Shown here piece by piece: positions 3,143 to 62,976 of a stretch of DNA of 64,000 nucleotides (positions are counted from its first letter, which is position 1; the number at the start of each line of letters is the position of its first letter). The notes under the pieces are model-generated. The model made no database searches, was not told the DNA's origin, and saw only the letters and a program-made list of their open reading frames with translations. The stretch is from Octopus sinensis. Its lineage: Eukaryota. Location: contig NC_043011.1 of assembly GCF_006345805.1 (NCBI RefSeq), positions 22,518,464-22,582,463 of the forward strand, given 5' to 3'. Both the position numbers and the translations under genes were made by a program.

Positions 3143-4238
3143 ATTTTTATTATTATATGATTGAACGCCACGCATCCTTTTCCAAGTAAGTTTTATCCTA
3201 ACTCCGATACGACTCTTGTATCATTCTATCATTCGTTTTTTTCTCTCTTCTCCAAGTATTCTATCCTTTTACTCTTTCATTTTCTCCTTTCCTTTCTCTT
3301 ATTCTTTTACCTCTTCCTCTCTCACTATTCTACCCTTTTACTCTGTCGTTTTCTCTCTTCCTTTCTCTTATTCTTTTACCTCCTCCTCTCCCACTATTCT
3401 ATCCTTTTACTCTGTCGTTTTCTCTCTTCCTTTCTCTTATTCTTTTACCTCCTCCTCTCTCACTATTCTACCCTTTTACTCTGTCGTTTTCTCTCTTCCT
3501 TTCTCTTATTCCTTTACCTCCTCCTCTCCCACTATTCTATCCTTTTGCTCTTTCGCTTTCTCTCTTCCTTTCTTTTACCTCCCCTTCTCCCTCTCCCTCT
3601 CCCTCTTTTTGTCTCTTGTCCTGTCTCCACATATTTTCCTCTCTCCTTCACAGTTCTCTGTCTGCCACTCTCTCTCCCTCACTCTTCCTCCTTTGCTCAC
3701 GTGGCCCCCACGTGACCATCGGCTATTCTCCTAACTTGGGTTTCTTTCTTCCTGTTTCAGCTGGACAGGCAAGACGTATTGTTCTTTGTCTCCTGTTCAG
3801 ACTTATTTCTTCGCGTTCGCCACCACAACCTCGCTTAGGCTTAGCACCCCTTCCTGTTTGTTTTCACTGTGCTGTTTTTGTCACCAATCTTGACCCTCTG
3901 CAAGATCGCAAATTTTATTTAACTTGCTTTGCGGGAGTAACTGTTTTATCGAAGGCGTATCTTGTCGTGAATTGCTCGAAATACGGATTAGAAAAACAGC
4001 CGACAACTGAAGAAGGGTCGTTCCTTGTGTTGCTTGTCTTGTTTTCCACTTGCTTCTTTCGTTGCTTGTAAAAAAGCCCTTATTCCATGTCCTCGTACTT
4101 TGTATTTTTTGTTGTATATTTTTTGTGGCGTCCTGTGCTCACATATGCATTTGTATATACGTATGCATGTAAGTATGTACGTATACATATGTATATATGC
4201 ATATATATATTATTTATATTATTATATGATTGAACGCC
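3073..4238. mobile_element. Unclassified element with terminal direct repeats and an internal 69-bp tandem repeat
   Basis: TATTCCATGTCCTCGTACTT...ATTATATGATTGAACGCCA occurs at about 3073-3170 and 4077-4238. A pyrimidine-rich 69-bp unit starts at 3292, 3361, 3430 and 3499. Confidence 0.55.
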
Positions 4239-4279: not shown

Positions 4280-5015
4280 TTGCGTCAGAAATTAATTAGC
4301 ACTTCTCAAATTTTTACATTTTCTTACATTTTCTTAATTTAATTAACTTATTATCAGAAACGAACTCGTTTTTAATCAAAAATTTATTAAAACATATCCC
4401 AGCATACCACATAATTGTTTTTAATCGTGAAATTTAGTCAATATCTTGTTGCTCTTCCTTTGGCAGCAATGACAGCTGCTACGCGGGCCGGCATGCTGTC
4501 TATGAGTGCCTGCAGGTACTGTGCAGGGATGGCCCTCCATGCAGCAAGAAGTGCCCCAAACAGCTCGTGTCGGTTCCTGTATTGCTGCACATTCAAATCC
4601 CTACCCAATCGACTCCAGAGGTTCTCAATAGGGTTCAGGTCAGATGACTGGCCAGGCCAGTCCATGAAGAAACCGGTTGTGAGCTTGGCTGTGTGGGGAG
4701 GCGCGTTGTCCTGCTGGAGCACGTACTCCTCGCCACCAAAGAGGTATCCCGCAGAGGGTATGGCAGCATTCCGTACTATCTCAACGTACTTTGCTGCGTT
4801 GATGTTGCCTTCGACGGCATAGAGCCGCCCAACACCACTGTAGCTGAACGCCCCCACACCATCAGACCACCCCCACCATGCTTCATGGTGGGAGCAATGC
4901 AGTCTTTGTTGAAGCGCTCACCCCTGCGGCGTCGCACATGGACAGGCTTGTCACTGACGAGACTGAATCGCGACTCGTCAGTGAACATCACTGTCCGCCA
5001 CTGCTGCACGGTCCA
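4277..5015 (-). pseudogene. Tc1-like DD34E transposase pseudogene (3' half plus right terminus)
   Basis: WRTVMFTDESRF...KHGGGGLMVWG, frameshift near 4856, then QQDNAPPH...WPGQSSDLNPIENLW...KGRATRY. The D-E spacing is shortened to 27 by a deletion. The terminus follows a TA run at about 4277. Confidence 0.9.
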
Positions 5016-9394: not shown

Positions 9395-11642
9395 TGTCCA
9401 CTAGCGAAAATTCGATCAACTGTCCACAGGTCTAAATTCTATCAACTTTCCACTCGTCTAAATTCGATCAACTGTCCACTGTTGTAAATTCGATCAACTG
9501 TCCACTGGTGTAAATTTGATCAACTGGTGTAAATTTGATCAACCGTCGACTTGTGCATTTCAATCAATTAGTACTAGCGAAAATTTGATCAACTGTCCAC
9601 TAGTGCCAATTCGATCAACTGTCCACTGGTCTAAATTCGATCAACTATCCACTAGTGTTATATTCGATTAACTGTCCACTGGTGTAAATTTGATCAACTG
9701 TCTACTTGTGCATTTCAATCAAATGTCAACTAGCGAAAATTCGATCAACTGTCCACAGGTCTAAATTCGATCAACTATTCACTAGCGAAAATTCGATTGA
9801 CTTTCACTGGTCTAAATTCGTTCAACTGTCTACTTATGCAAATTCGATCAACTGTCCACTAGCAAACATTCGTTCTACTGGCCACTGGTGTAAATTCGAT
9901 CAACTGTCCACTAGCGCAAATTCTATCAACTGCACTCTGGTGTAAATTCGATCAACAGTCCACTAGCGAAAATTTGATCAATTATCTTCTTGTGCAAATT
10001 CGATCAACTGTGCAGTAGCGAAAATTCGATCAACTGTCCACTGGTCTAACGTCGATCCACTAATAGCGTAAATTCGATCAACTGTCTACTTTTGCAAATT
10101 CGATCAACTGCCCACTGGTGGAAATTTGATTAACTGTCCGCTAGCGCAAATTCGATCAACTGTCCACTGGTCTAACGTCGATCAACTATCCAACGGTGCA
10201 AATTCGATCAACTGTCCACTGGTGTAAATTTGATCAACTGTCTAATTGTGTATTTCGATCAATTTTCAACTAGGGAAAATTCGATAGACTGTCCACTAGT
10301 CTAAATTCGTTCAACTGTCTACTTATGTAAATTCGATTAACTGTCCACTAGCGAAAATTCGATCTAGTATCCTCTAGCGCAAATTCGATTGAATGTCTAC
10401 TGGTCTAAATTCGTTCAATTGTCTACTTGTGCAAATTCGATCAACTGTCCACTAGCAAACATTCGTTCACTGTCCACTGGTGTAATTCGATCAACTGTCA
10501 ACTAGCGCAAATTCTATCAACTGCCCACTGGTGTAAATTCGATCAATTGTCCACTAGGGAAAATTTGATCAATTGTCTTCTTGTGCAAATTCAATTAACT
10601 GTCCACTAGCGAAAATTCGATCAACTGTCCACTGGTGTAAATTCGATCAACTGTCCACTGGTCTAACGTCGATCAACTATCCAACGGTGCAAATTCGATC
10701 AACTGTCCACTGATGTAAATTCGATCAACTGTCTAATTGTGTATTTCGATCAATTTTCAACTAGGGAAAATTCGATAGACTCCACTAGTCTAAATTCGTT
10801 CAACTGTCTACTTATGTAAATTCGATTAACTGTCCACTAGCGAAAATTCGATCTAGTATCCACTAGCGCAAATTCGATTGAATGTCTACTGGTCTAAATT
10901 CGTTCAATTGTCTACTTGTGCAAATTCGATCAACTGTCCACTAGCAAACATTCGTTCAACTGTCCACTGGTGTAAATTCGATCAACTGTCAACTAGCGCA
11001 AATTCTATCAACTGCCCACTGGTGTAAATTCGATCAATTGTCCACTAGGGAAAATTTGATCAATTGTCTTCTTGTGCAAATTCAATTAACTGTCCACTAG
11101 CGAAAATTCGATCAACTGTCCACTGGTGTAAATTCGATCAACTGTCCACTGGTCTAACGTCGATCAACTGTGCAATTGTGTAAATTCGATCTACTGTCTA
11201 CTTTTGCAAATTCGATCGACTACCCACTGGTGTAAATTTGATTAATTGTCCGCTGGCGCAAATTCGATCGATCAACTGTCCACTGATGTAAATTCGATCA
11301 ACTGTCTACTTTTGCAAATTCGATCACCTGTCCACTGGCGTAAATTTGAACAACTGTCTACTTGTGCATTTCAATCAATTGCCCACTAGCAAAAATTCGA
11401 TCAACTGTCCACTGATGTAAATTCGATCAACTGTCTACTTTTGCAAATTCGATCACCTGTCCACTGGCGTAAATTTGAACAACTGTCTACTTGTGCATTT
11501 CAATCAATTGCCCACTAGCGAAAATTCGATCAACTGTCCACCGGTGTAAACTTGATCAACTGTTTACATGTGCAAATTCGATCAATTGTCCACTGGTGTA
11601 AATTCGATCAACTGTCCACTGGTCTAAATTCGATCAACTGTC
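9395..11642. repeat. 26-bp tandem satellite/minisatellite, about 85 units
   Basis: Consensus AAATTCGATCAACTGTCCACTGGTGT repeated head to tail. The variant TCTAACGTC recurs at 10171, 10662 and 11153 (491-bp period). Confidence 0.95.
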
Positions 11643-18655: not shown

Positions 18656-19702
18656 ATCTTTAATCGGTGATTGCACCATACAAAACCGACGATCGTTGCA
18701 ATTGTGCCAGCATATTTAGATACAGAAAATATCAATCAAATTAATATATCCGAAAAATATGTTACCAAGGCAATCCAAAATTGGTTAAATTCAAAGTGAA
18801 CTAAGAAAATATTTCTATTAGACGAACGCAAATAAGAAGAACGTCAAGAAAATATATAATGTTCTAAGAAAAATCAATTTAGTATTTAACTTTTGATGAC
18901 GTCAGTTGATAACGAAAGAAGAAAAAAATTAACACGAATTCTACGTCACGACAATTAGAAACAGAAATTCTGCGTCACAATAATTAGTTATCCATCAAAT
19001 ATGCTAAACGCTTGGATTTATTTGTCATACATCAGGAATTACCCTGAGTATTTGTTCTATTTGTATTTATTGGGAGCTGATTGTTGGATATAGTCAGCCA
19101 AATTCGTTTAACACTGCCAGGACTTATTAATCCATTTTTACTTACTGTCTAAGAATCCACAAGTTGGAAAAAATATGCTTTTGCATGTATTTGTCAATAG
19201 AATGGGTATATTAATCAAAATACGTAGTATTATAGATTCACTTCAGCCTATCTTACTAATCGGTATCTGAAGAGCACGTGGTGCTGCTATATAACAATAT
19301 CTGGTTATTTAATAGCCAGTACGAAACCGATTGATAAGATTGGCTGAAATGGATTACGGCATACTTCGACGATATTCGCACGAGCGCATGTATGTATGTT
19401 TCGGTTATAAATGCTGAAAACTTGAAAAGGCCAATAATTCAGAGTAGTAAATGCCAAAACATTGAATTGTGAAATATTTTAGAAAAATAAGAAAAACAGT
19501 TAGTAAAATTTCATGAGCACACACACACACACACACCACACACACACACACACATGCTGCTAGGCAATTTGTTCGACGCGGTAATGATTCTGCAAGCTTT
19601 AATAAGATTAAAGCAGAGTGTATCTTAAGATAAGAGGGTGGTCAGGAATCTGTGGTTTTCTTCTTCATTTAATTTTAGAAATGCAAATAACAATGGACTA
19701 AC

Positions 19703-21013
19703 CTGGTATGGCTGCCTTGCCGGAATACGTCAAGAAAAAGTTACGAGTCGGTGCAAGTGTACTACTAATATTGTTTATATCGTTGGTTGTTTTATGTATA
19801 GAGACCTTCGGAGGTTCGGTGCGAGTAGGAATATTTCTGAATAAATATTTTGTCGTAGTGGAACTACTTTCTGCTTGTAAATTATCGTGGAACTGATTCA
19901 ATGTTGTGGTTATTGTTTGTGTAAAGGTCTCACTAACATTTCCCAATAAAGTATTTGATGTATCTCTTATTGACGAATTATTTCGGAGTAAATCCTTTGA
20001 TAAAGCTTCATTTAAAGTTGTATCGATTAAATTCTCTGGCGTTGCAGCTTCTGTCTCTATTGCCAACGATAATCTGGAAGGGCGGGCTGTCCAGTTTATG
20101 TTGAGAGATGTAGCTTGTGATGTTATGACTGAATCTACGAGAGTGGATGATGTAATAAATACGTCAGCGGATTTTGTTTCATTCAAAGAATTCTTTGTGA
20201 TATTCCTTGGAAGTGCGCTTGATATAACTTCAGTCGAACTATTATTTATGGGTAAATCCTTTGATACAGTCCAACGCGAAGTCGTATTAATTAGATTCTC
20301 TGATGTTAAAGTTTCTGTCACTATTACCGGCAGCAGACGAGGCCTGTGCGTTTTCCAATTCTGTTCAGCTGATACGGATACTGTGCGAAACATATCACCA
20401 GTATCTTTTGCTGCTGATAAATCTGATGCTGAAGTGAAAGAGCTGGATGCCAATGTTGTTTCCGGTGTAGATTTTATACTTTCCTGACGAGTTGCAAAAG
20501 TGATCGTTTCATTATCCTGACGAGTTGCAAAAGTAATCGTTTCATTATGCTTTGGCGAATCATATATGTTATCCGAGATGGTTGCGTTATTGTATTGTTC
20601 GGTAACCGTATAGTTTGCAAGAAGTGAAATAAGTGATTTCATATTGATTGTCGTTATTGGCACAGTGGTTTTTGGTAATTTTGTTGCTGTATTTCCTGAC
20701 GCTGTTGTATTTGATGCCGTTGTTGTAGGACCTGACGCTGTTGTATTTGATACTGTTGCATTTGGCGCCATAGCTGAATTTCTTGATGCTGTTACCATTG
20801 TTGCTGCTCTTTTTATTCTCTTTATCCGAAGCGTTATATAAGTGTTGTTTTGAGTCGAAGAAAGATTTGACCGACTGTGTCCATTTCTCGTTGATGTAAA
20901 CTCTTTTGGGGTGAAAAGGCGTGAAGATTTCTTCCTGGGTTTTGAAGTTTTCATACTTTCTTTTGATGTTAGTTTCTTTGTAGAAGACTCTGGTATGCTT
21001 TCGTTACGATGGG
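19703..21013 (-). CDS. Mucin-like type I membrane protein, 1311-nt Ser/Thr-rich stalk exon
   Basis: The 418-aa ORF extends upstream to acceptor acattccag, with donor G/gttagt. Length is divisible by 3 (phase 1-1). S/T-rich with many N-x-S/T sequons and an RIKRIKR motif. Confidence 0.88.
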
Positions 21014-21263
21014 CTGGAATGTAATAATGATGCTTTTACATTAGAATGAGACCACAACTGTTGGGAGTAAGGATGTAATGAATTTAATCAACCACGTACA
21101 TAGCTAGCAATATATTTTACCGAATCTAAAATGAGAGGCAAAGTCATCCTCGATGATATTTGATATCACAACGTAATGAGATGTAACTAAATGTTGTCAG
21201 CCATTTAGTCCGGGCTATTGACGTGTCTGTACTTCCTCTGCCTAATAACAATGGGGTTCTACA

Positions 21264-44316: not shown

Positions 44317-44410
44317 ACACATATATATGTATATATATATGTATATATACATAGATATCATTTACATTATTTACATTTGACGGATATTTGTCCTCGTCTT
44401 GTTTGTTGTT

Positions 44411-44456
44411 AACACAACGTTTCGGCTGATATACCCTCCAGCCTTCATCAGGTGTT
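44411..44456 (-). ncRNA. Type I hammerhead ribozyme motif
   Basis: AACAC-CTGATGA-A-GGCTG gagggtatat CAGCC-GAAAC-GTT-GTGTT. Intact core, stems I and II, palindromic stem III. Confidence 0.8.
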
Positions 44457-44503
44457 TTGGAGAAATTTCGAACCTGGATTCTCATTCCTAAGGTATTTTT
44501 CGA

Positions 44504-44538
<35 letters not shown>

Positions 44539-44670
44539 TATTATTATTATTATTATCATTCAGATCACTGCTTGGAATCTAACTCGGAATTTTGGGGTTA
44601 GTAGCCCGCGCTCTTAACCACTACGCCATATGCATGTGGGAATGAGAACCCATGTTAGAAATTTCCCCAA

Positions 44671-44716
44671 GGCACCTGATGAAAGCTGGAGGGTATATCA
44701 GCTGAAACGTTGTGTT
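44671..44716 (+). ncRNA. Type I hammerhead ribozyme motif
   Basis: GGCAC-CTGATGA-A-AGCTG gagggtatat CAGCT-GAAAC-GTT-GTGTT. Confidence 0.8.
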
Positions 44717-44848
44717 AACAACAAACAAGATGAATACAAATATCCGTCAAATGTAAATAATGTACATAATTCCCCATCTCTTAAATATAGAACTATACAT
44801 ACATACATTCACACACATACATACATACATAATACATACATACATATA

Positions 44849-50796: not shown

Positions 50797-51234
50797 TTAC
50801 AAGGTCGATGTTCGATGGCGAATTTGAAGACGTTTCTCGGTGAAATTTTTTAGAGATTGTCGTATATCCAATTTTAAACCACCTTCTGAATTTTTTGACT
50901 TTTCCTTTTTCTTTCGACAATGTCGAACCTCTTGAATCAAAGTCCTCACAGCCTTTTCTACACTGTCGTAACTATCCCCAGCAGATACTTCAGAAAACAG
51001 AAGATTCCTATTACGGCAAAAAGCTAAACCTTCTTCGAATTGTACTTGTCTCATATGTAACATATCGGCTTTGTTGCCTATGACAGAAATTGGTGTTGCT
51101 TCGTCACACAGTTGTAATACCTTGTCCACGAGTTTCTTACATGATTCGAAGCTTTCTCGATCCATGATTGAGTAAACAATCATAATCCCATCAGCCCACG
51201 ATAAGTGGTTCTCTCGCTGTTGACTGTCAATAGC
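50797..51234 (-). CDS. RERG: RERG/RASL11/RASL12-family Ras-like small GTPase, terminal exon
   Basis: Acceptor ctacttccag, phase 0, 146 codons. WADGIMIVYSIMDRESF, G4 GNKAD, G5 EVSAG, basic C-terminus without CAAX. Exact orthology within the subfamily is not established. Confidence 0.88.
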   Translation of the reverse strand, partial: AIDSQQRENHLSWADGIMIVYSIMDRESFESCKKLVDKVLQLCDEATPISVIGNKADMLHMRQVQFEEGLAFCRNRNLLFSEVSAGDSYDSVEKAVRTLIQEVRHCRKKKEKSKNSEGGLKLDIRQSLKNFTEKRLQIRHRTSTL

Positions 51235-52413
51235 CTGGAAGTAGATACGAACACGAATTAGGCATAAGCGAAAATAAATAATTTAAATTGCTGATTATGT
51301 GCATATCTATGAGGGGTTTAAGCCCTCTGGGAATAATTATTTTCACATAAAGGTGTCATATCACCAACATATGTGTAGTTACATTAACGTACAAATAAAA
51401 AAAAAACATATAATCACATATATACATGGAAAACTACATATGTACTGATACACACACAAAAGTACCTGTCGGGATATCAATATGTATTATAAAATTAAAT
51501 ATTTTACTGGGCCCACTTTTATTTTACAATTAGGCCTACCTAGTTCTTCTCCAGATCTTTTAATTTGTGCTCGGTTGATTTTTCCAATGAACCACTGGTA
51601 TTAAAATGGAGTACATATGAAACTGTTTAACTTCAGAGACTTTACAGAAACAGGTGCTTTAAATATCAATTAAGAGTTTCCATTTCTAAGATTGATTCAA
51701 GTTCTCCATAAATCAAATCTAACTCTAAGTGCTACTCTCTATTTTTTGTCAGTAAAATATACCTAGTGATTATGCAACGAAGGAATAAAAATATAGTTTA
51801 CTTTTCAAACGATAAATCCTGAAAAAAGTTCATGTACATGCTTCCTGTTCTGGTGTTATCTTTCAAAATGCTTTATATCAATTATTTTTGAAACAGCCTT
51901 GTTATTACATTAGCACAACATCAACCGTACACATGCAAAGAAGAGCAAAAACAGAAAAACGTAACAACAATTACAAACCATAACGAGAACAACCACAACC
52001 ACTAATAGCAACGTTTTCACACTATAGATAAGTAGAGAAATTTAGTTTTCTGATATCAAATTGTTCTTGGCGTTGATAAGCTTTACTTACACCTCACTTT
52101 ATCGCTATAACGTATACAGATTAGATCTTTCCGATCGTAATGATGGTAAATTACCGTCAATTGGCCTCCGTAAAGAATTTGCAAGCTAAAACCGCCTCCC
52201 TGGTGGGGATAAACAACACTGTACGTAAGCCAGAAGAATTCGCAATCATCTTGATATTTTCTGACGTGTTCTGTCAAGGTATAACTTATTTATTACACTC
52301 GAGATCTCGTTTGCAGAATTATATTTTCAGCATGTTTTTATTTCATATTGTAAATTACCATTAAAAAGTAATTCGTTGTGCATATGAAATTAAATTTCTC
52401 TTAGAAGTGTAAT

Positions 52414-59092: not shown

Positions 59093-59557
59093 AGGTGTAT
59101 TATGTACACATTTGAGTTGCTGAGTAACTTCCTCAACACCCAGTCATAATATTGTAAGAGCTAGGCCAGGCAACTCCTACCTGGTCGAAAGCCATGCTGG
59201 GTATCACTCAGTTATTTTCTTCAAGGAATGCGATTAGTTTCCCTCTGACTATCCGTTCCATGACTTTGCTGATGTCTGAAGTCAGAGAGATAGGCCTATA
59301 GCTTTTGGCATCTGCTCTGCTTCCCCCTTTATGGATTGGGCATATTATTCCCTCCTTCAGCTTGCTTGGCAGTCTGCCATTTGCAAGAAAGCTCTGGAAT
59401 AGAATCTGGAGGGGTTGTGCCAGGACGTGCTTACACGATTTGAGGAAGATTGCTGGGAAACCATCAGGACCAGCAGTTGAGTTTGCGGCCACCTTATCTA
59501 TGGCTAGTAGTATATCTTCTTCGCTAATGTCGATGTATTCCATCGTAACTGCCTCGC
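59093..59557 (-). pseudogene. CR1/Jockey-like LINE RT N-terminal fragment
   Basis: TAGPDGFPAIFLK...ICPIHKGGSRADAKSYRPISLTSDISKVMERIV...QHGFRPGRSCL. Confidence 0.88.
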
Positions 59558-60779
59558 TGGAATTGCTTGTTTTGTGCCAAGATTTGAAACCAATATTTCC
59601 ACGATCATATTTTCTAATCTATCTTTCTTCTGTTTAACCTTTAGCATTCAGATTATTCTGTCAAATGTAATGCTTATTTACCTAGATTGTTTTGAATTAA
59701 CCATGCATTAAATCGAAGTTTCAAGAGTTCAATGGTGTTATTGTTTATTTTTAGAAATACATTGTAGGGCAGGCGTGAAACTGATATTTATATCAATTTT
59801 TATTATGTTTCTGTGCTCGGAGAGAAAATAAAATAGATAATATCTTTACAGTTACGGGAAAGAGAAAACACTCGGCGGTGAACTAACTTTTGAAACCGTA
59901 GATAAATAAACTGGTACGAAAATATAAGGAAAAGAGGATTGAAAGAACTACAAGTGAAGTCAATTAGCTTCTTTTTTTATTTTCTTGCAGTTAACTTAAG
60001 AAATTGATAAATACTGGGTATTTCCTTTCCGTTATTAATCATACTTTACTCATACAAATCCATCATCTTTTAATTTTAGTTGATTGATGTTCGTTAGCTG
60101 AGTATTAGATTATCTGTTTTTCAATTTCTTTATAATTCTTTCGCATACGGAATGCAGATCTTTTCATCTAACATCACAAGATTTGAAAACCTTTTGAAGA
60201 CTAGAAAAAATATATATTTCAGGCGTTCCTGGCATCTGTATAATTGTGATGATTATCTAAAATTAATATTACTGAATAAAAATAGTAAACATAACTGGAG
60301 ATCTGTAGAGTAGTCAGCTGATTACAAATATGAAAATCAGTGGAGAGACCAGAACAGAAGACTTCCATAATAATTGAATTATATTTAGGTTTGTCTTCAT
60401 AACTGAAGGAACCTAATTAATTGGTGAAGGTTTGCAAGATCGTGATTTCGGTTCTCAGACCGGGTGGTGTCTTGTGTTCCTGCGCAAAACAGTTCATTTC
60501 ACGTTGCTAAAGGCCATTGAGTGGGAAATAAGTAACCCTGTGATAAACTGGCATCCCATTCAGAAGGACAGTGGTGATCTCAGTCATTTATACACTACGA
60601 GGACCGGGTAATCCACCCTATGGGTGCTAGGACTCCAGACAGTAATGACCATTGGTTAACTTTATCCGTTATTTTCTTTTTTAACATCCTAAGTTCTAAT
60701 CTGAAACCTGAGATGGGTACAATAAGCACCAGGCATATATGCAAATCAATTCTGTCGGCTATGTCCCTTCCATTATAAA

Positions 60780-62119: not shown

Positions 62120-62700
62120 TTAAGTCCAAAACTGAATATGAAACTTACAGGGTACACTGGTCCACAAGGAATTACAATCCCAGAGCCTAAATCAGTGAGG
62201 GACCTGGGTATCGGCATGAGTGATGATAACTCTTTCCAAATGAACATCAGGACGGCGACAAAGTGCAGGCGACTGGCTGGCTGGCTGGATCCTGAGAACA
62301 CTCAGAACCAGAGATAAGGAAATCATGACGGTCCTTTGGAGGACATTCGTCCTCAGCCGCCTAGATTACTGCTCCCAGCTATGGTCACCCAACAGTGTAA
62401 AATTAACAGCGGACCTTGAAGCAATCCAGCGAAGCTTCACAAAAAAGATCGTCTCTTTGCAACAGCTCAGCTACTGGAAAAGGCTGAAACAGCTAAGACT
62501 CTACTCCCTGGAGCGAAGGTATGCAGTAATATACATCTGGAAGATCCTGGAAGGAATTGTGCCAAATTTTAGCATTGAAAGCTACACCAATGCCAGAACG
62601 GGTTGTCACTGCACAGTGCCAAAGATCCCAGCAATGCCATCGAGCTTCAGGAAGGTTACTGCAACAGCCTGGGTTTCAGGTGCCCACAGTTTTTTAATAT
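62120..62700 (+). pseudogene. CR1/L2-like LINE RT 3' fragment
   Basis: VRDLGI, LWRTFVLSRLDYCSQLWSP...LEAIQRSFTKKI...LYSLERR. Confidence 0.85.
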
Positions 62701-62976
62701 ACTCATTTTAATATACTCTTAAATCTAATTGTAACAGCTAGATTTAAGAGTATGACATATTTCTAGCTATTATATCCAATTAAATCCAACCTCCCTAATA
62801 TTATTAGTCTTAGAGAATTTTTCAGAGTATTTTATTTATGTTATTCCCATAATACTTCGCGCATGACAGAGGGAGCAGCCATTTACACAGGAATGAGAAG
62901 GAGTAAACATTATATCGATAAGTATACTTCCTTTGTTAATTTTTTTTACTAGAGTTTTGTACTAGTTTTATTCAAT

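What the first reader, a model, noticed from the sequence alone, without database searches (positions are those of the whole stretch)
44363..44764. Inverted hammerhead pair with compensatory stem changes, downstream of a Pol III tRNA-like head
Seen: two 126-bp arms in inverted orientation each hold an intact hammerhead. Stem II is GGCTG/CAGCC in one and AGCTG/CAGCT in the other (G-C to A-U double change), and stem I goes from AACAC to GGCAC (A-U to G-U), so pairing is preserved. Between them, on the minus strand, is a tRNA-like head (A box TGGCGTAGTGG, loop CTACTAA, B box GTTAGATTCC) followed by (TAA)n. No TTTT terminator occurs before the minus-strand ribozyme. Inference: a Pol III-driven self-cleaving SINE/retrozyme chimera, analogous to Schistosoma Sm-alpha or newt satellite 2, possibly mobilised by PLE RT.
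Basis: partly seen in the sequence, partly recalled or inferred. Interest (0 to 1): 0.75.

Follow-up and report, generated by a model that had tools for sequence, protein, structure and literature searches.

The report
Penelope retrotransposon end with tRNA promoter

Summary
The arms, both hammerhead cores, the tRNA-like head and (TAA)n are real. The 'compensatory' stem changes are not: across 97 arms the two stem II positions vary independently (p=0.39). The unit recurs genome-wide (5,725 exact hammerhead matches). It is not a stand-alone SINE/retrozyme. Head-(TAA)n-hammerhead-tail is the pseudo-LTR of a Penelope/Poseidon-type element: it follows the endonuclease stop in 29 of 30 loci, and its tail runs in frame into the RT ORF, so the arms encode the ORF's N-terminus. 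The inverted truncated arm, one-sided tail and 10-14 bp duplications are known Penelope traits. The unusual feature is a head most like tRNA-Arg(ACG) (50/74) with A and B boxes. Of 30 position-sampled heads, 22 begin 0-7 nt upstream of tRNA base 1, none at 8-63, and 8 run into the ORF. This likely marks a Pol III start, making each solo repeat a built-in SINE. One head-started copy spans the whole ORF. Pol III transcription and cleavage are untested, and this copy's B box is mutated. My literature searches found no such element, but this scan has reported the same family from other DNA several times.

The parts
44357..44794 (.). Whole insertion: sense pLTR copy on the minus strand (head to 9-nt repeats) plus an inverted, 5'-truncated second copy carrying the tail
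44357..44488 (-). Left arm: sense copy of the pLTR 3' part, ending in the 9-nt repeats, without tail
44411..44456 (-). Minimal type I hammerhead: stem I 44456-44452/44415-44411, core from 44451, stem II 44443-44439/44428-44424; predicted cut after 44416
   Evidence: cleavage not tested
44360..44485 (-). ATG-initiated open frame of 42 codons, the N-terminus of the element's ORF
44489..44505 (-). Linker between (TAA)n and the arm
44506..44560 (-). (TAA)n microsatellite, length variable among copies
44561..44635 (-). tRNA-derived head, closest to tRNA-Arg(ACG) of 11 isotypes compared; acceptor stem lost
   Evidence: family majority 50/74 identical; not called as tRNA
44618..44628 (-). A box
44574..44583 (-). 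B box, mutated in this copy at 44580
44636..44640 (-). Short leader before tRNA base 1; its last 2 nt are shared with the start of the inverted arm (junction microhomology)
44639..44770 (+). Right arm: inverted 5'-truncated copy starting in the linker
44671..44716 (+). Second minimal hammerhead: core from 44676, predicted cut after 44711
44642..44794 (+). ATG-initiated open frame through hammerhead and tail; continues into the RT ORF in long copies
44765..44794 (+). Penelope 'tail' of about 30 nt, on this end only
44347..44357 (+). Possible target duplication (10 of 11 nt match to 44795-44805); weak, since both lie in microsatellite
   Evidence: the automated test found only 6 nt for this copy

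Best explanation
[quoted passage not shown] Shown: in long copies the order is RT-endonuclease ORF, stop, ~35 nt, head, (TAA)n, ATG, hammerhead, 9-nt repeats, tail, and the tail continues in frame into the ORF of the next unit. Shown: most sampled heads start 0-7 nt before tRNA base 1. Inferred: Pol III starts about 6 nt before the head and reads a T4-free repeat into flanking DNA. Inferred: the element's protein binds the tail region, nicks AT-rich DNA and starts reverse transcription internally at either tail border, as shown for the anole element. Inferred: a second priming or template switch joins an inverted copy at microhomology, leaving a 10-14 bp duplication. Any solo repeat with intact boxes would then be a SINE-like source needing only the protein in trans. 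The hammerheads would at best cleave as dimers or with protein help.
For: Unit recurs: 29 of 30 fetched loci, the window's own included, have both arms and the head. 5,725 exact hammerhead matches, reversed control 0; about 14,000 arms after a 41/103 recovery correction. Head directly follows the endonuclease region in 29 of 30 loci. RT: RVT_1 E=1.2e-9; 7 homologues at 52-68% identity. Tail-to-ORF continuity in long copies; partial tandem L416. Exactly one tail in 42 of 44 two-arm inserts. Shared flank word of 10 nt or more in 17 of 44 inserts versus 6 of 1,892 mismatched pairs. Both arms share the free N7 variant in 6 inserts versus 1.3 expected. 5' ends: 22 of 30 at 0-7 nt, 0 at 8-63, 8 into the ORF; about 42 times the truncation rate further upstream. 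Genome-wide 4,245 A-box words versus 834 words just upstream. 14 of the 22 join unique flank, so fold-back does not explain the peak. Best tRNA match Arg(ACG), score 22 versus 13.5 next.
Against: No transcript evidence: no run on record as RNA and only contigs could be laid. This copy's B box is mutated and the head does not keep an acceptor stem. A short palindrome at the head start could favour truncation or fold-back. About a dozen copies are truncated inside the head. Pfam gave no GIY-YIG hit for the C-terminal ORF, so that label rests on recalled motifs. No intact ORF was seen: the best-covering matches among 72 scored all carry stops or breaks. Loci L001-L060 were selected for similarity to this copy. 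No phylogeny was built.
Confidence: 0.72

Rival explanations
1. Same Penelope element, but the head is a passenger (an old SINE-head insertion). The pile-up of 5' ends comes from a Pol II start at that place, or from RT stopping or folding back at the short palindrome, or from tRNA-like processing.
For: Drosophila Penelope has an internal LINE-like promoter (PMC2377424, abstract). A GCCC/GGGC palindrome sits at the head start, and 8 of 22 head-start copies have an inverted piece adjacent. No Pol III data exist.
Against: 14 of 22 join unique flank. 13 of 22 keep 4-7 leader bases, which does not fit a cut exactly at base 1. The acceptor stem is lost while both boxes persist in the majority sequence. 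A structural block would be expected at the 3' side of the head (inference).
Confidence: 0.2
2. One reading: an independent Pol III SINE/retrozyme like Sm-alpha, in which self-cleavage by a selected ribozyme pair produces the mobile RNA.
For: Head and hammerhead are linked in 26 of 30 A-box-anchored loci. Short copies outnumber ORF-linked ones about 5:1. A Pol III plus hammerhead precedent exists in schistosomes (PMC6765202, passages).
Against: The head is part of the coding element and the arm encodes the ORF start. There is no covariation, and core positions mutate about like other non-CpG sites, 2.8% versus 3.7%. Inverted arms point apart, so one transcript carries only one ribozyme. Copies end at the tail borders, 50-80 nt past the cut site. 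Head-to-tail repeats are rare (L119).
Confidence: 0.07
3. A chance neighbour (SINE inserted beside a ribozyme) or a DNA-type MITE with terminal inverted repeats.
For: The window copy alone looks like a MITE.
Against: The unit recurs. The inverted arm varies in length from copy to copy and is often absent. Duplications vary in length and the tail is one-sided.
Confidence: 0.01

Closest known systems
Penelope/Poseidon-clade PLEs, e.g. PAc of Anolis carolinensis (PMC11167929, parts 1-2 of 4 read; PMC8557442, passages)
   Same: Single RT plus C-terminal endonuclease ORF, partial tandems forming pLTRs, inverted 5'-truncated copy, 30-40 nt one-sided tail, hammerhead in the pLTR overlapping the ORF start.
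   Different: Here the pLTR begins with a tRNA-derived head with A and B boxes and (TAA)n, and copies pile up at that head. The parts of those papers that I read describe no such head.
Minimal hammerheads of metazoan PLEs (PMC4209133, passages)
   Same: Type I, no real helix III, palindromic loop, 4-5 bp helix I; predicted to work only as dimers, with low activity.
   Different: No difference seen in the ribozyme; helix II here is 5 bp with one extra A after the core.
Schistosoma Sm-alpha SINE-like repeats (as summarised in PMC6765202, passages; the primary paper was not held)
   Same: Pol III-type promoter upstream of a hammerhead in a short retroposed repeat.
   Different: Sm-alpha is non-coding, tandem and has active canonical hammerheads. 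This one is the terminal repeat of its own coding element, mostly dispersed or inverted, with a minimal hammerhead.
Metazoan non-LTR retrozymes and newt satellite 2 (PMC7229834, passages)
   Same: Short hammerhead-bearing repeat of 170-400 nt, PLE mobilisation proposed.
   Different: Those are tandem, canonical-hammerhead circRNA sources. Here the unit ends are set by the PLE tail, not the cut site.
TRIMp3 elements Cassandra, Helenus, Ajax (PMC10886601, passages)
   Same: A small-RNA-derived Pol III promoter embedded in a retroelement's terminal repeat.
   Different: Those are non-autonomous LTR elements. This is a Penelope element that carries an RT-endonuclease ORF.
Octopus tRNA SINEs OR1, OR2, OK (OR1 named a CORE-SINE in PMC4824008, passages; tRNA-Arg origin of OR1/OR2 recalled, not checked)
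   Same: tRNA-derived head in what is likely an octopus genome (host inferred from recalled repeats, not from a call).
   Different: No room for a CORE domain, since (TAA)n follows the head directly.

Membership tests
EN+ PLE, Penelope/Poseidon type | RT domain in a single ORF | tested here: met
   RVT_1 E=1.2e-9 on L180; 817 in-frame codons from majority segments
EN+ PLE, Penelope/Poseidon type | C-terminal GIY-YIG endonuclease | tested here: inconclusive
   Motifs recognised by eye; no Pfam hit on L154
EN+ PLE, Penelope/Poseidon type | pLTR from partial tandem | tested here: met
   L416 and L415; tail runs into the ORF
EN+ PLE, Penelope/Poseidon type | Inverted 5'-truncated copy and one-sided 30-40 nt tail | tested here: met
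   one tail in 42 of 44 two-arm inserts
EN+ PLE, Penelope/Poseidon type | Minimal hammerhead in the pLTR | tested here: met
   core intact in 60 of 102 arms
EN+ PLE, Penelope/Poseidon type | No Zn-finger-like linker between RT and EN (present in Neptune/Nematis) | tested here: met
   By inspection: absent, present in other host families
EN+ PLE, Penelope/Poseidon type | Phylogenetic placement with named members | not tested
   No named reference sequences were fetched
tRNA-derived SINE | tRNA-related head with A and B boxes at the 5' end | tested here: met
   B box mutated in this copy
tRNA-derived SINE | Transcribed by Pol III | not testable with these tools
   Only contigs available
tRNA-derived SINE | A separate non-coding family that only borrows a partner's 3' end | tested here: not met
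   The head is part of the coding element in 29 of 30 loci
Retrozyme / Sm-alpha type | Canonical hammerhead with helix III | tested here: not met
   One pair closing a CG loop
Retrozyme / Sm-alpha type | Head-to-tail tandem monomers | tested here: not met
   Mostly single or inverted; isolated direct repeats only
Retrozyme / Sm-alpha type | Self-cleavage and circular RNA | not testable with these tools
   No raw reads
Octopus OR1/OR2/OK SINEs | Sequence identity to the published consensus | not testable with these tools
   Sequences not found

The most novel reading that the evidence does not exclude
The tRNA-derived head is the promoter of the whole protein-coding element, so Pol III would make the 2.8 kb RNA of an autonomous retrotransposon as well as its SINE-like short form. 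For: three ORF-bearing copies begin at the head and one spans the entire ORF to the next head, and the 2,530 nt majority sequence has no run of four T. Against: the T-run signal is modest (shuffle p 0.014-0.073), G4 is also absent, 5 of 41 shorter ORFs of distant relatives also lack T4, and an uncapped RNA would need a route to translation.
Probability: 0.3. Interest if true: 0.8.

Novelty: new variant of a known kind. Interest (0 to 1): 0.55.

Why it matters
SINEs are normally separate parasites that borrow a LINE's 3' end. Here the coding element appears to carry its own SINE inside its terminal repeat, which offers a concrete route from a Penelope element to a Pol III parasite, and sequence evidence that Penelope proteins copy short RNAs in trans. 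If the same promoter drives the ORF, it would be a Pol III-transcribed coding retrotransposon. Thousands of dated junctions also give a natural dataset for how Penelope inversions and tails form. The locus itself is one dead copy among thousands.

Tried and rejected
Rfam at gathering score and at E<=10 gave no hammerhead or tRNA match. ARAGORN called no head in the window or in 58 loci. Compensatory covariation was rejected. A GIY-YIG family search of the genome led to other PLE families, mostly Neptune-like; none of the 50 loci fetched carried this arm. The partner emerged from sequence upstream of heads. Expression: no RNA holder listed; the guessed-RNA runs are contigs only; two runs of other organisms laid nothing, which proves nothing. 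Low phenylalanine as a sign of T-run avoidance was rejected, since homologues have the same 2.2-3.2%. The first T-run null covered only 1,005 nt and was redone. The 5'-end count had an off-by-one error and was redone; a frame was wrong and was redone. No head-less version of the family appeared in 30 loci found with a 54%-identical protein. Distant relatives from metagenomes: 0 of 41 ORFs had an A+B box pattern within 500 nt downstream, but the pattern recovers only 15 of 30 own loci, 39 of 80 loci had no long ORF, and some ORFs end early. The protein atlas was unavailable. Three papers were not held. Repbase, Dfam and the Zenodo library of PMC13282606 could not be searched and may already list the family.

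Full report
Observation. The arms are 44357-44488 and 44639-44770, 132 nt, 90% complementary. Each holds a hammerhead core, a 5 bp stem II, a 5 bp stem I and, in place of helix III, one A-U pair closing CG. This is the minimal type described for Penelope-like elements (PLEs), which showed no monomer cleavage and low dimer cleavage in vitro (PMC4209133, passages). Between the arms, on the minus strand, lie a tRNA-like head and (TAA)n. The unit has no T4. Rfam and ARAGORN call nothing.

The stem changes are not compensatory. I projected 108 arms from 59 loci onto the right arm. Of these, 97 have G/A and C/T at the two stem II positions: GC 57, GT 21, AC 16, AT 3 (p=0.39). CpG sites differ from the majority at 18.8%, other non-CpG sites at 3.7%, core sites at 2.8%, stems at 4.8%. 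This is decay after insertion. These loci were chosen for similarity to the window copy.

The unit is a large family. The window lies in a 2.72 Gb animal genome, likely an octopus (recalled repeats, no call). Of 30 loci fetched, 29, the window's own included, have both arms and the head. A 32-nt hammerhead pattern has 5,725 exact matches, control 0. It recovers 41 of 103 arms, implying about 14,000 arms. The same modules occur in contigs of four other coded organisms or labels.

It inserts like a Penelope element. In 40 loci taken in chromosome order, copies are single, 5'-truncated, or joined to an inverted copy of variable length. A ~30 nt tail is on exactly one end in 42 of 44 two-arm inserts. 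Flanks share a word of 10 nt or more in 17 of 44 inserts, against 6 of 1,892 mismatched pairs. Both arms carry the minor N7 variant in 6 inserts where 1.3 are expected, so they tend to come from one template. Inverted truncated copies and one-sided tails are standard PLE traits (PMC8557442, passages).

It is the pseudo-LTR of a coding element. Six loci showed a shared sequence upstream of the head that translates as an endonuclease-like C-terminus. In 29 of 30 loci found with it, the head follows directly. Further upstream lies an RT (RVT_1, E=1.2e-9; the C-terminal ORF had no Pfam hit). Seven unnamed homologues are 52-68% identical. At the other end, the tail continues in frame into the ORF, and both window arms hold ATG-initiated open frames of 52 and 42 codons. 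The anole element PAc has the same layout: its ORF starts in the hammerhead, the tail lies between two internal RT start sites, and cleavage was protein-assisted and dispensable for insertion in vitro (PMC11167929, parts 1-2 of 4). Long copies are mostly 88-94% identical to the majority, and none seen had an intact ORF.

The head. Its majority sequence aligns from base 1 with the host's tRNA-Arg(ACG), 50 of 74 identical, score 22 against 13.5 for the next of 11 isotypes. Not all isotypes were sampled. The acceptor stem is lost; A and B boxes are kept in the majority. The window copy has a C-to-A change in the B box. Among the first 30 A-box matches on contig C1, 22 extend only 0-7 nt upstream into the element's sequence, none 8-63, and 8 run into the ORF. 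That is about 42 times the truncation rate further upstream. Genome-wide, the A-box word has 4,245 matches and an equally specified word just upstream has 834. Of the 22, 14 join unique DNA and 8 an inverted piece, and 13 keep 4-7 leader bases. A transcription start about 6 nt before the tRNA-like sequence explains this best. That is inference: no usable RNA data were found.

Could Pol III drive the ORF too? Three ORF-bearing copies start at the head and L415 spans the whole ORF; a fourth, L416, is an ordinary partial tandem. The 2,530 nt majority has no T4; shuffles give none in 41 of 3,000 (mononucleotide), 146 of 2,000 (dinucleotide) and 124 of 5,000 (synonymous codon). Two Neptune-like host ORFs of 2.3 kb have 10 and 9, and 41 distant relatives have 157 in 45 kb. 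But G4 is also absent, 5 of those 41 have none, and phenylalanine content is normal for the clade. I treat this as a hint only.

Comparison with what is known. It works like a SINE and is a member of the endonuclease-positive PLEs, with the GIY-YIG label and clade placement resting on motifs. It fails the retrozyme tests for canonical helix III and tandem monomers. Schistosome Sm-alpha (PMC6765202, passages) and TRIMp3 elements (PMC10886601, passages) are non-coding precedents for parts of it. Eight library searches turned up no PLE with a tRNA-derived pLTR head. The 2026 O. vulgaris repeat paper (PMC13282606; parts 1-2 of 3 and a supplement search) lists 190 Penelope families without structural detail. 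Also seen: PMC7229834, PMC4824008 and PMC9115989 (passages) and PMC2377424 (abstract). Repbase, Dfam and subscription papers were out of reach.

Earlier notes of this scan. A sequence look-up found nothing. A word look-up made after my main tests returned 9 unreviewed findings, 8 shown, on this and other genomes with essentially the same reading. They are repeats of the idea, not independent evidence.

Verdict. A real feature, and a dead copy of a Penelope family with a captured tRNA-derived head that is likely a Pol III promoter. New variant of a known kind; interest 0.55.

Noticed in passing
window 40902 (+) and 2973 (-): Two more minimal hammerhead-like cores with unrelated stems, probably ends of other Penelope families.
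   Followed up: no
window 50797-51282 (+): 161-codon frame that looks like the last exon of a Ras-like small GTPase (RERG-like, by recalled motifs); the insertion may lie in one of its introns.
   Followed up: no
window 9395-11642 and 3245-3577: Satellite of 87 copies of 26 bp, and a 69 bp array of 4.8 copies.
   Followed up: no
window 19698-21035 (-): 445-codon Ser/Thr-rich open frame, mucin-like.
   Followed up: no
window 4438-4917 (-), 59208-59618 (+), 62244-62711 (+): A Tc1-like transposase fragment and two LINE RT fragments, by recalled motifs.
   Followed up: no
G000:C2:3.12-3.16 Mb (L263-L272): Tandem array of roughly 90 tRNA-Arg(ACG) genes at about 206 bp spacing.
   Followed up: partly
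L104, L110 and other loci: Neptune-like PLE families with intact 775-781 codon ORFs, several copies, possibly recently active; no hammerhead found near them with my patterns.
   Followed up: partly
L390, L391, L392, L395: Four near-full-length copies with the same junctions, three on unplaced contigs: duplication or assembly redundancy.
   Followed up: no
family-wide, arm 3' part: The repeat before the tail varies in steps of 9 nt (37, 46, 55, 64 nt between anchors), which keeps the reading frame.
   Followed up: partly
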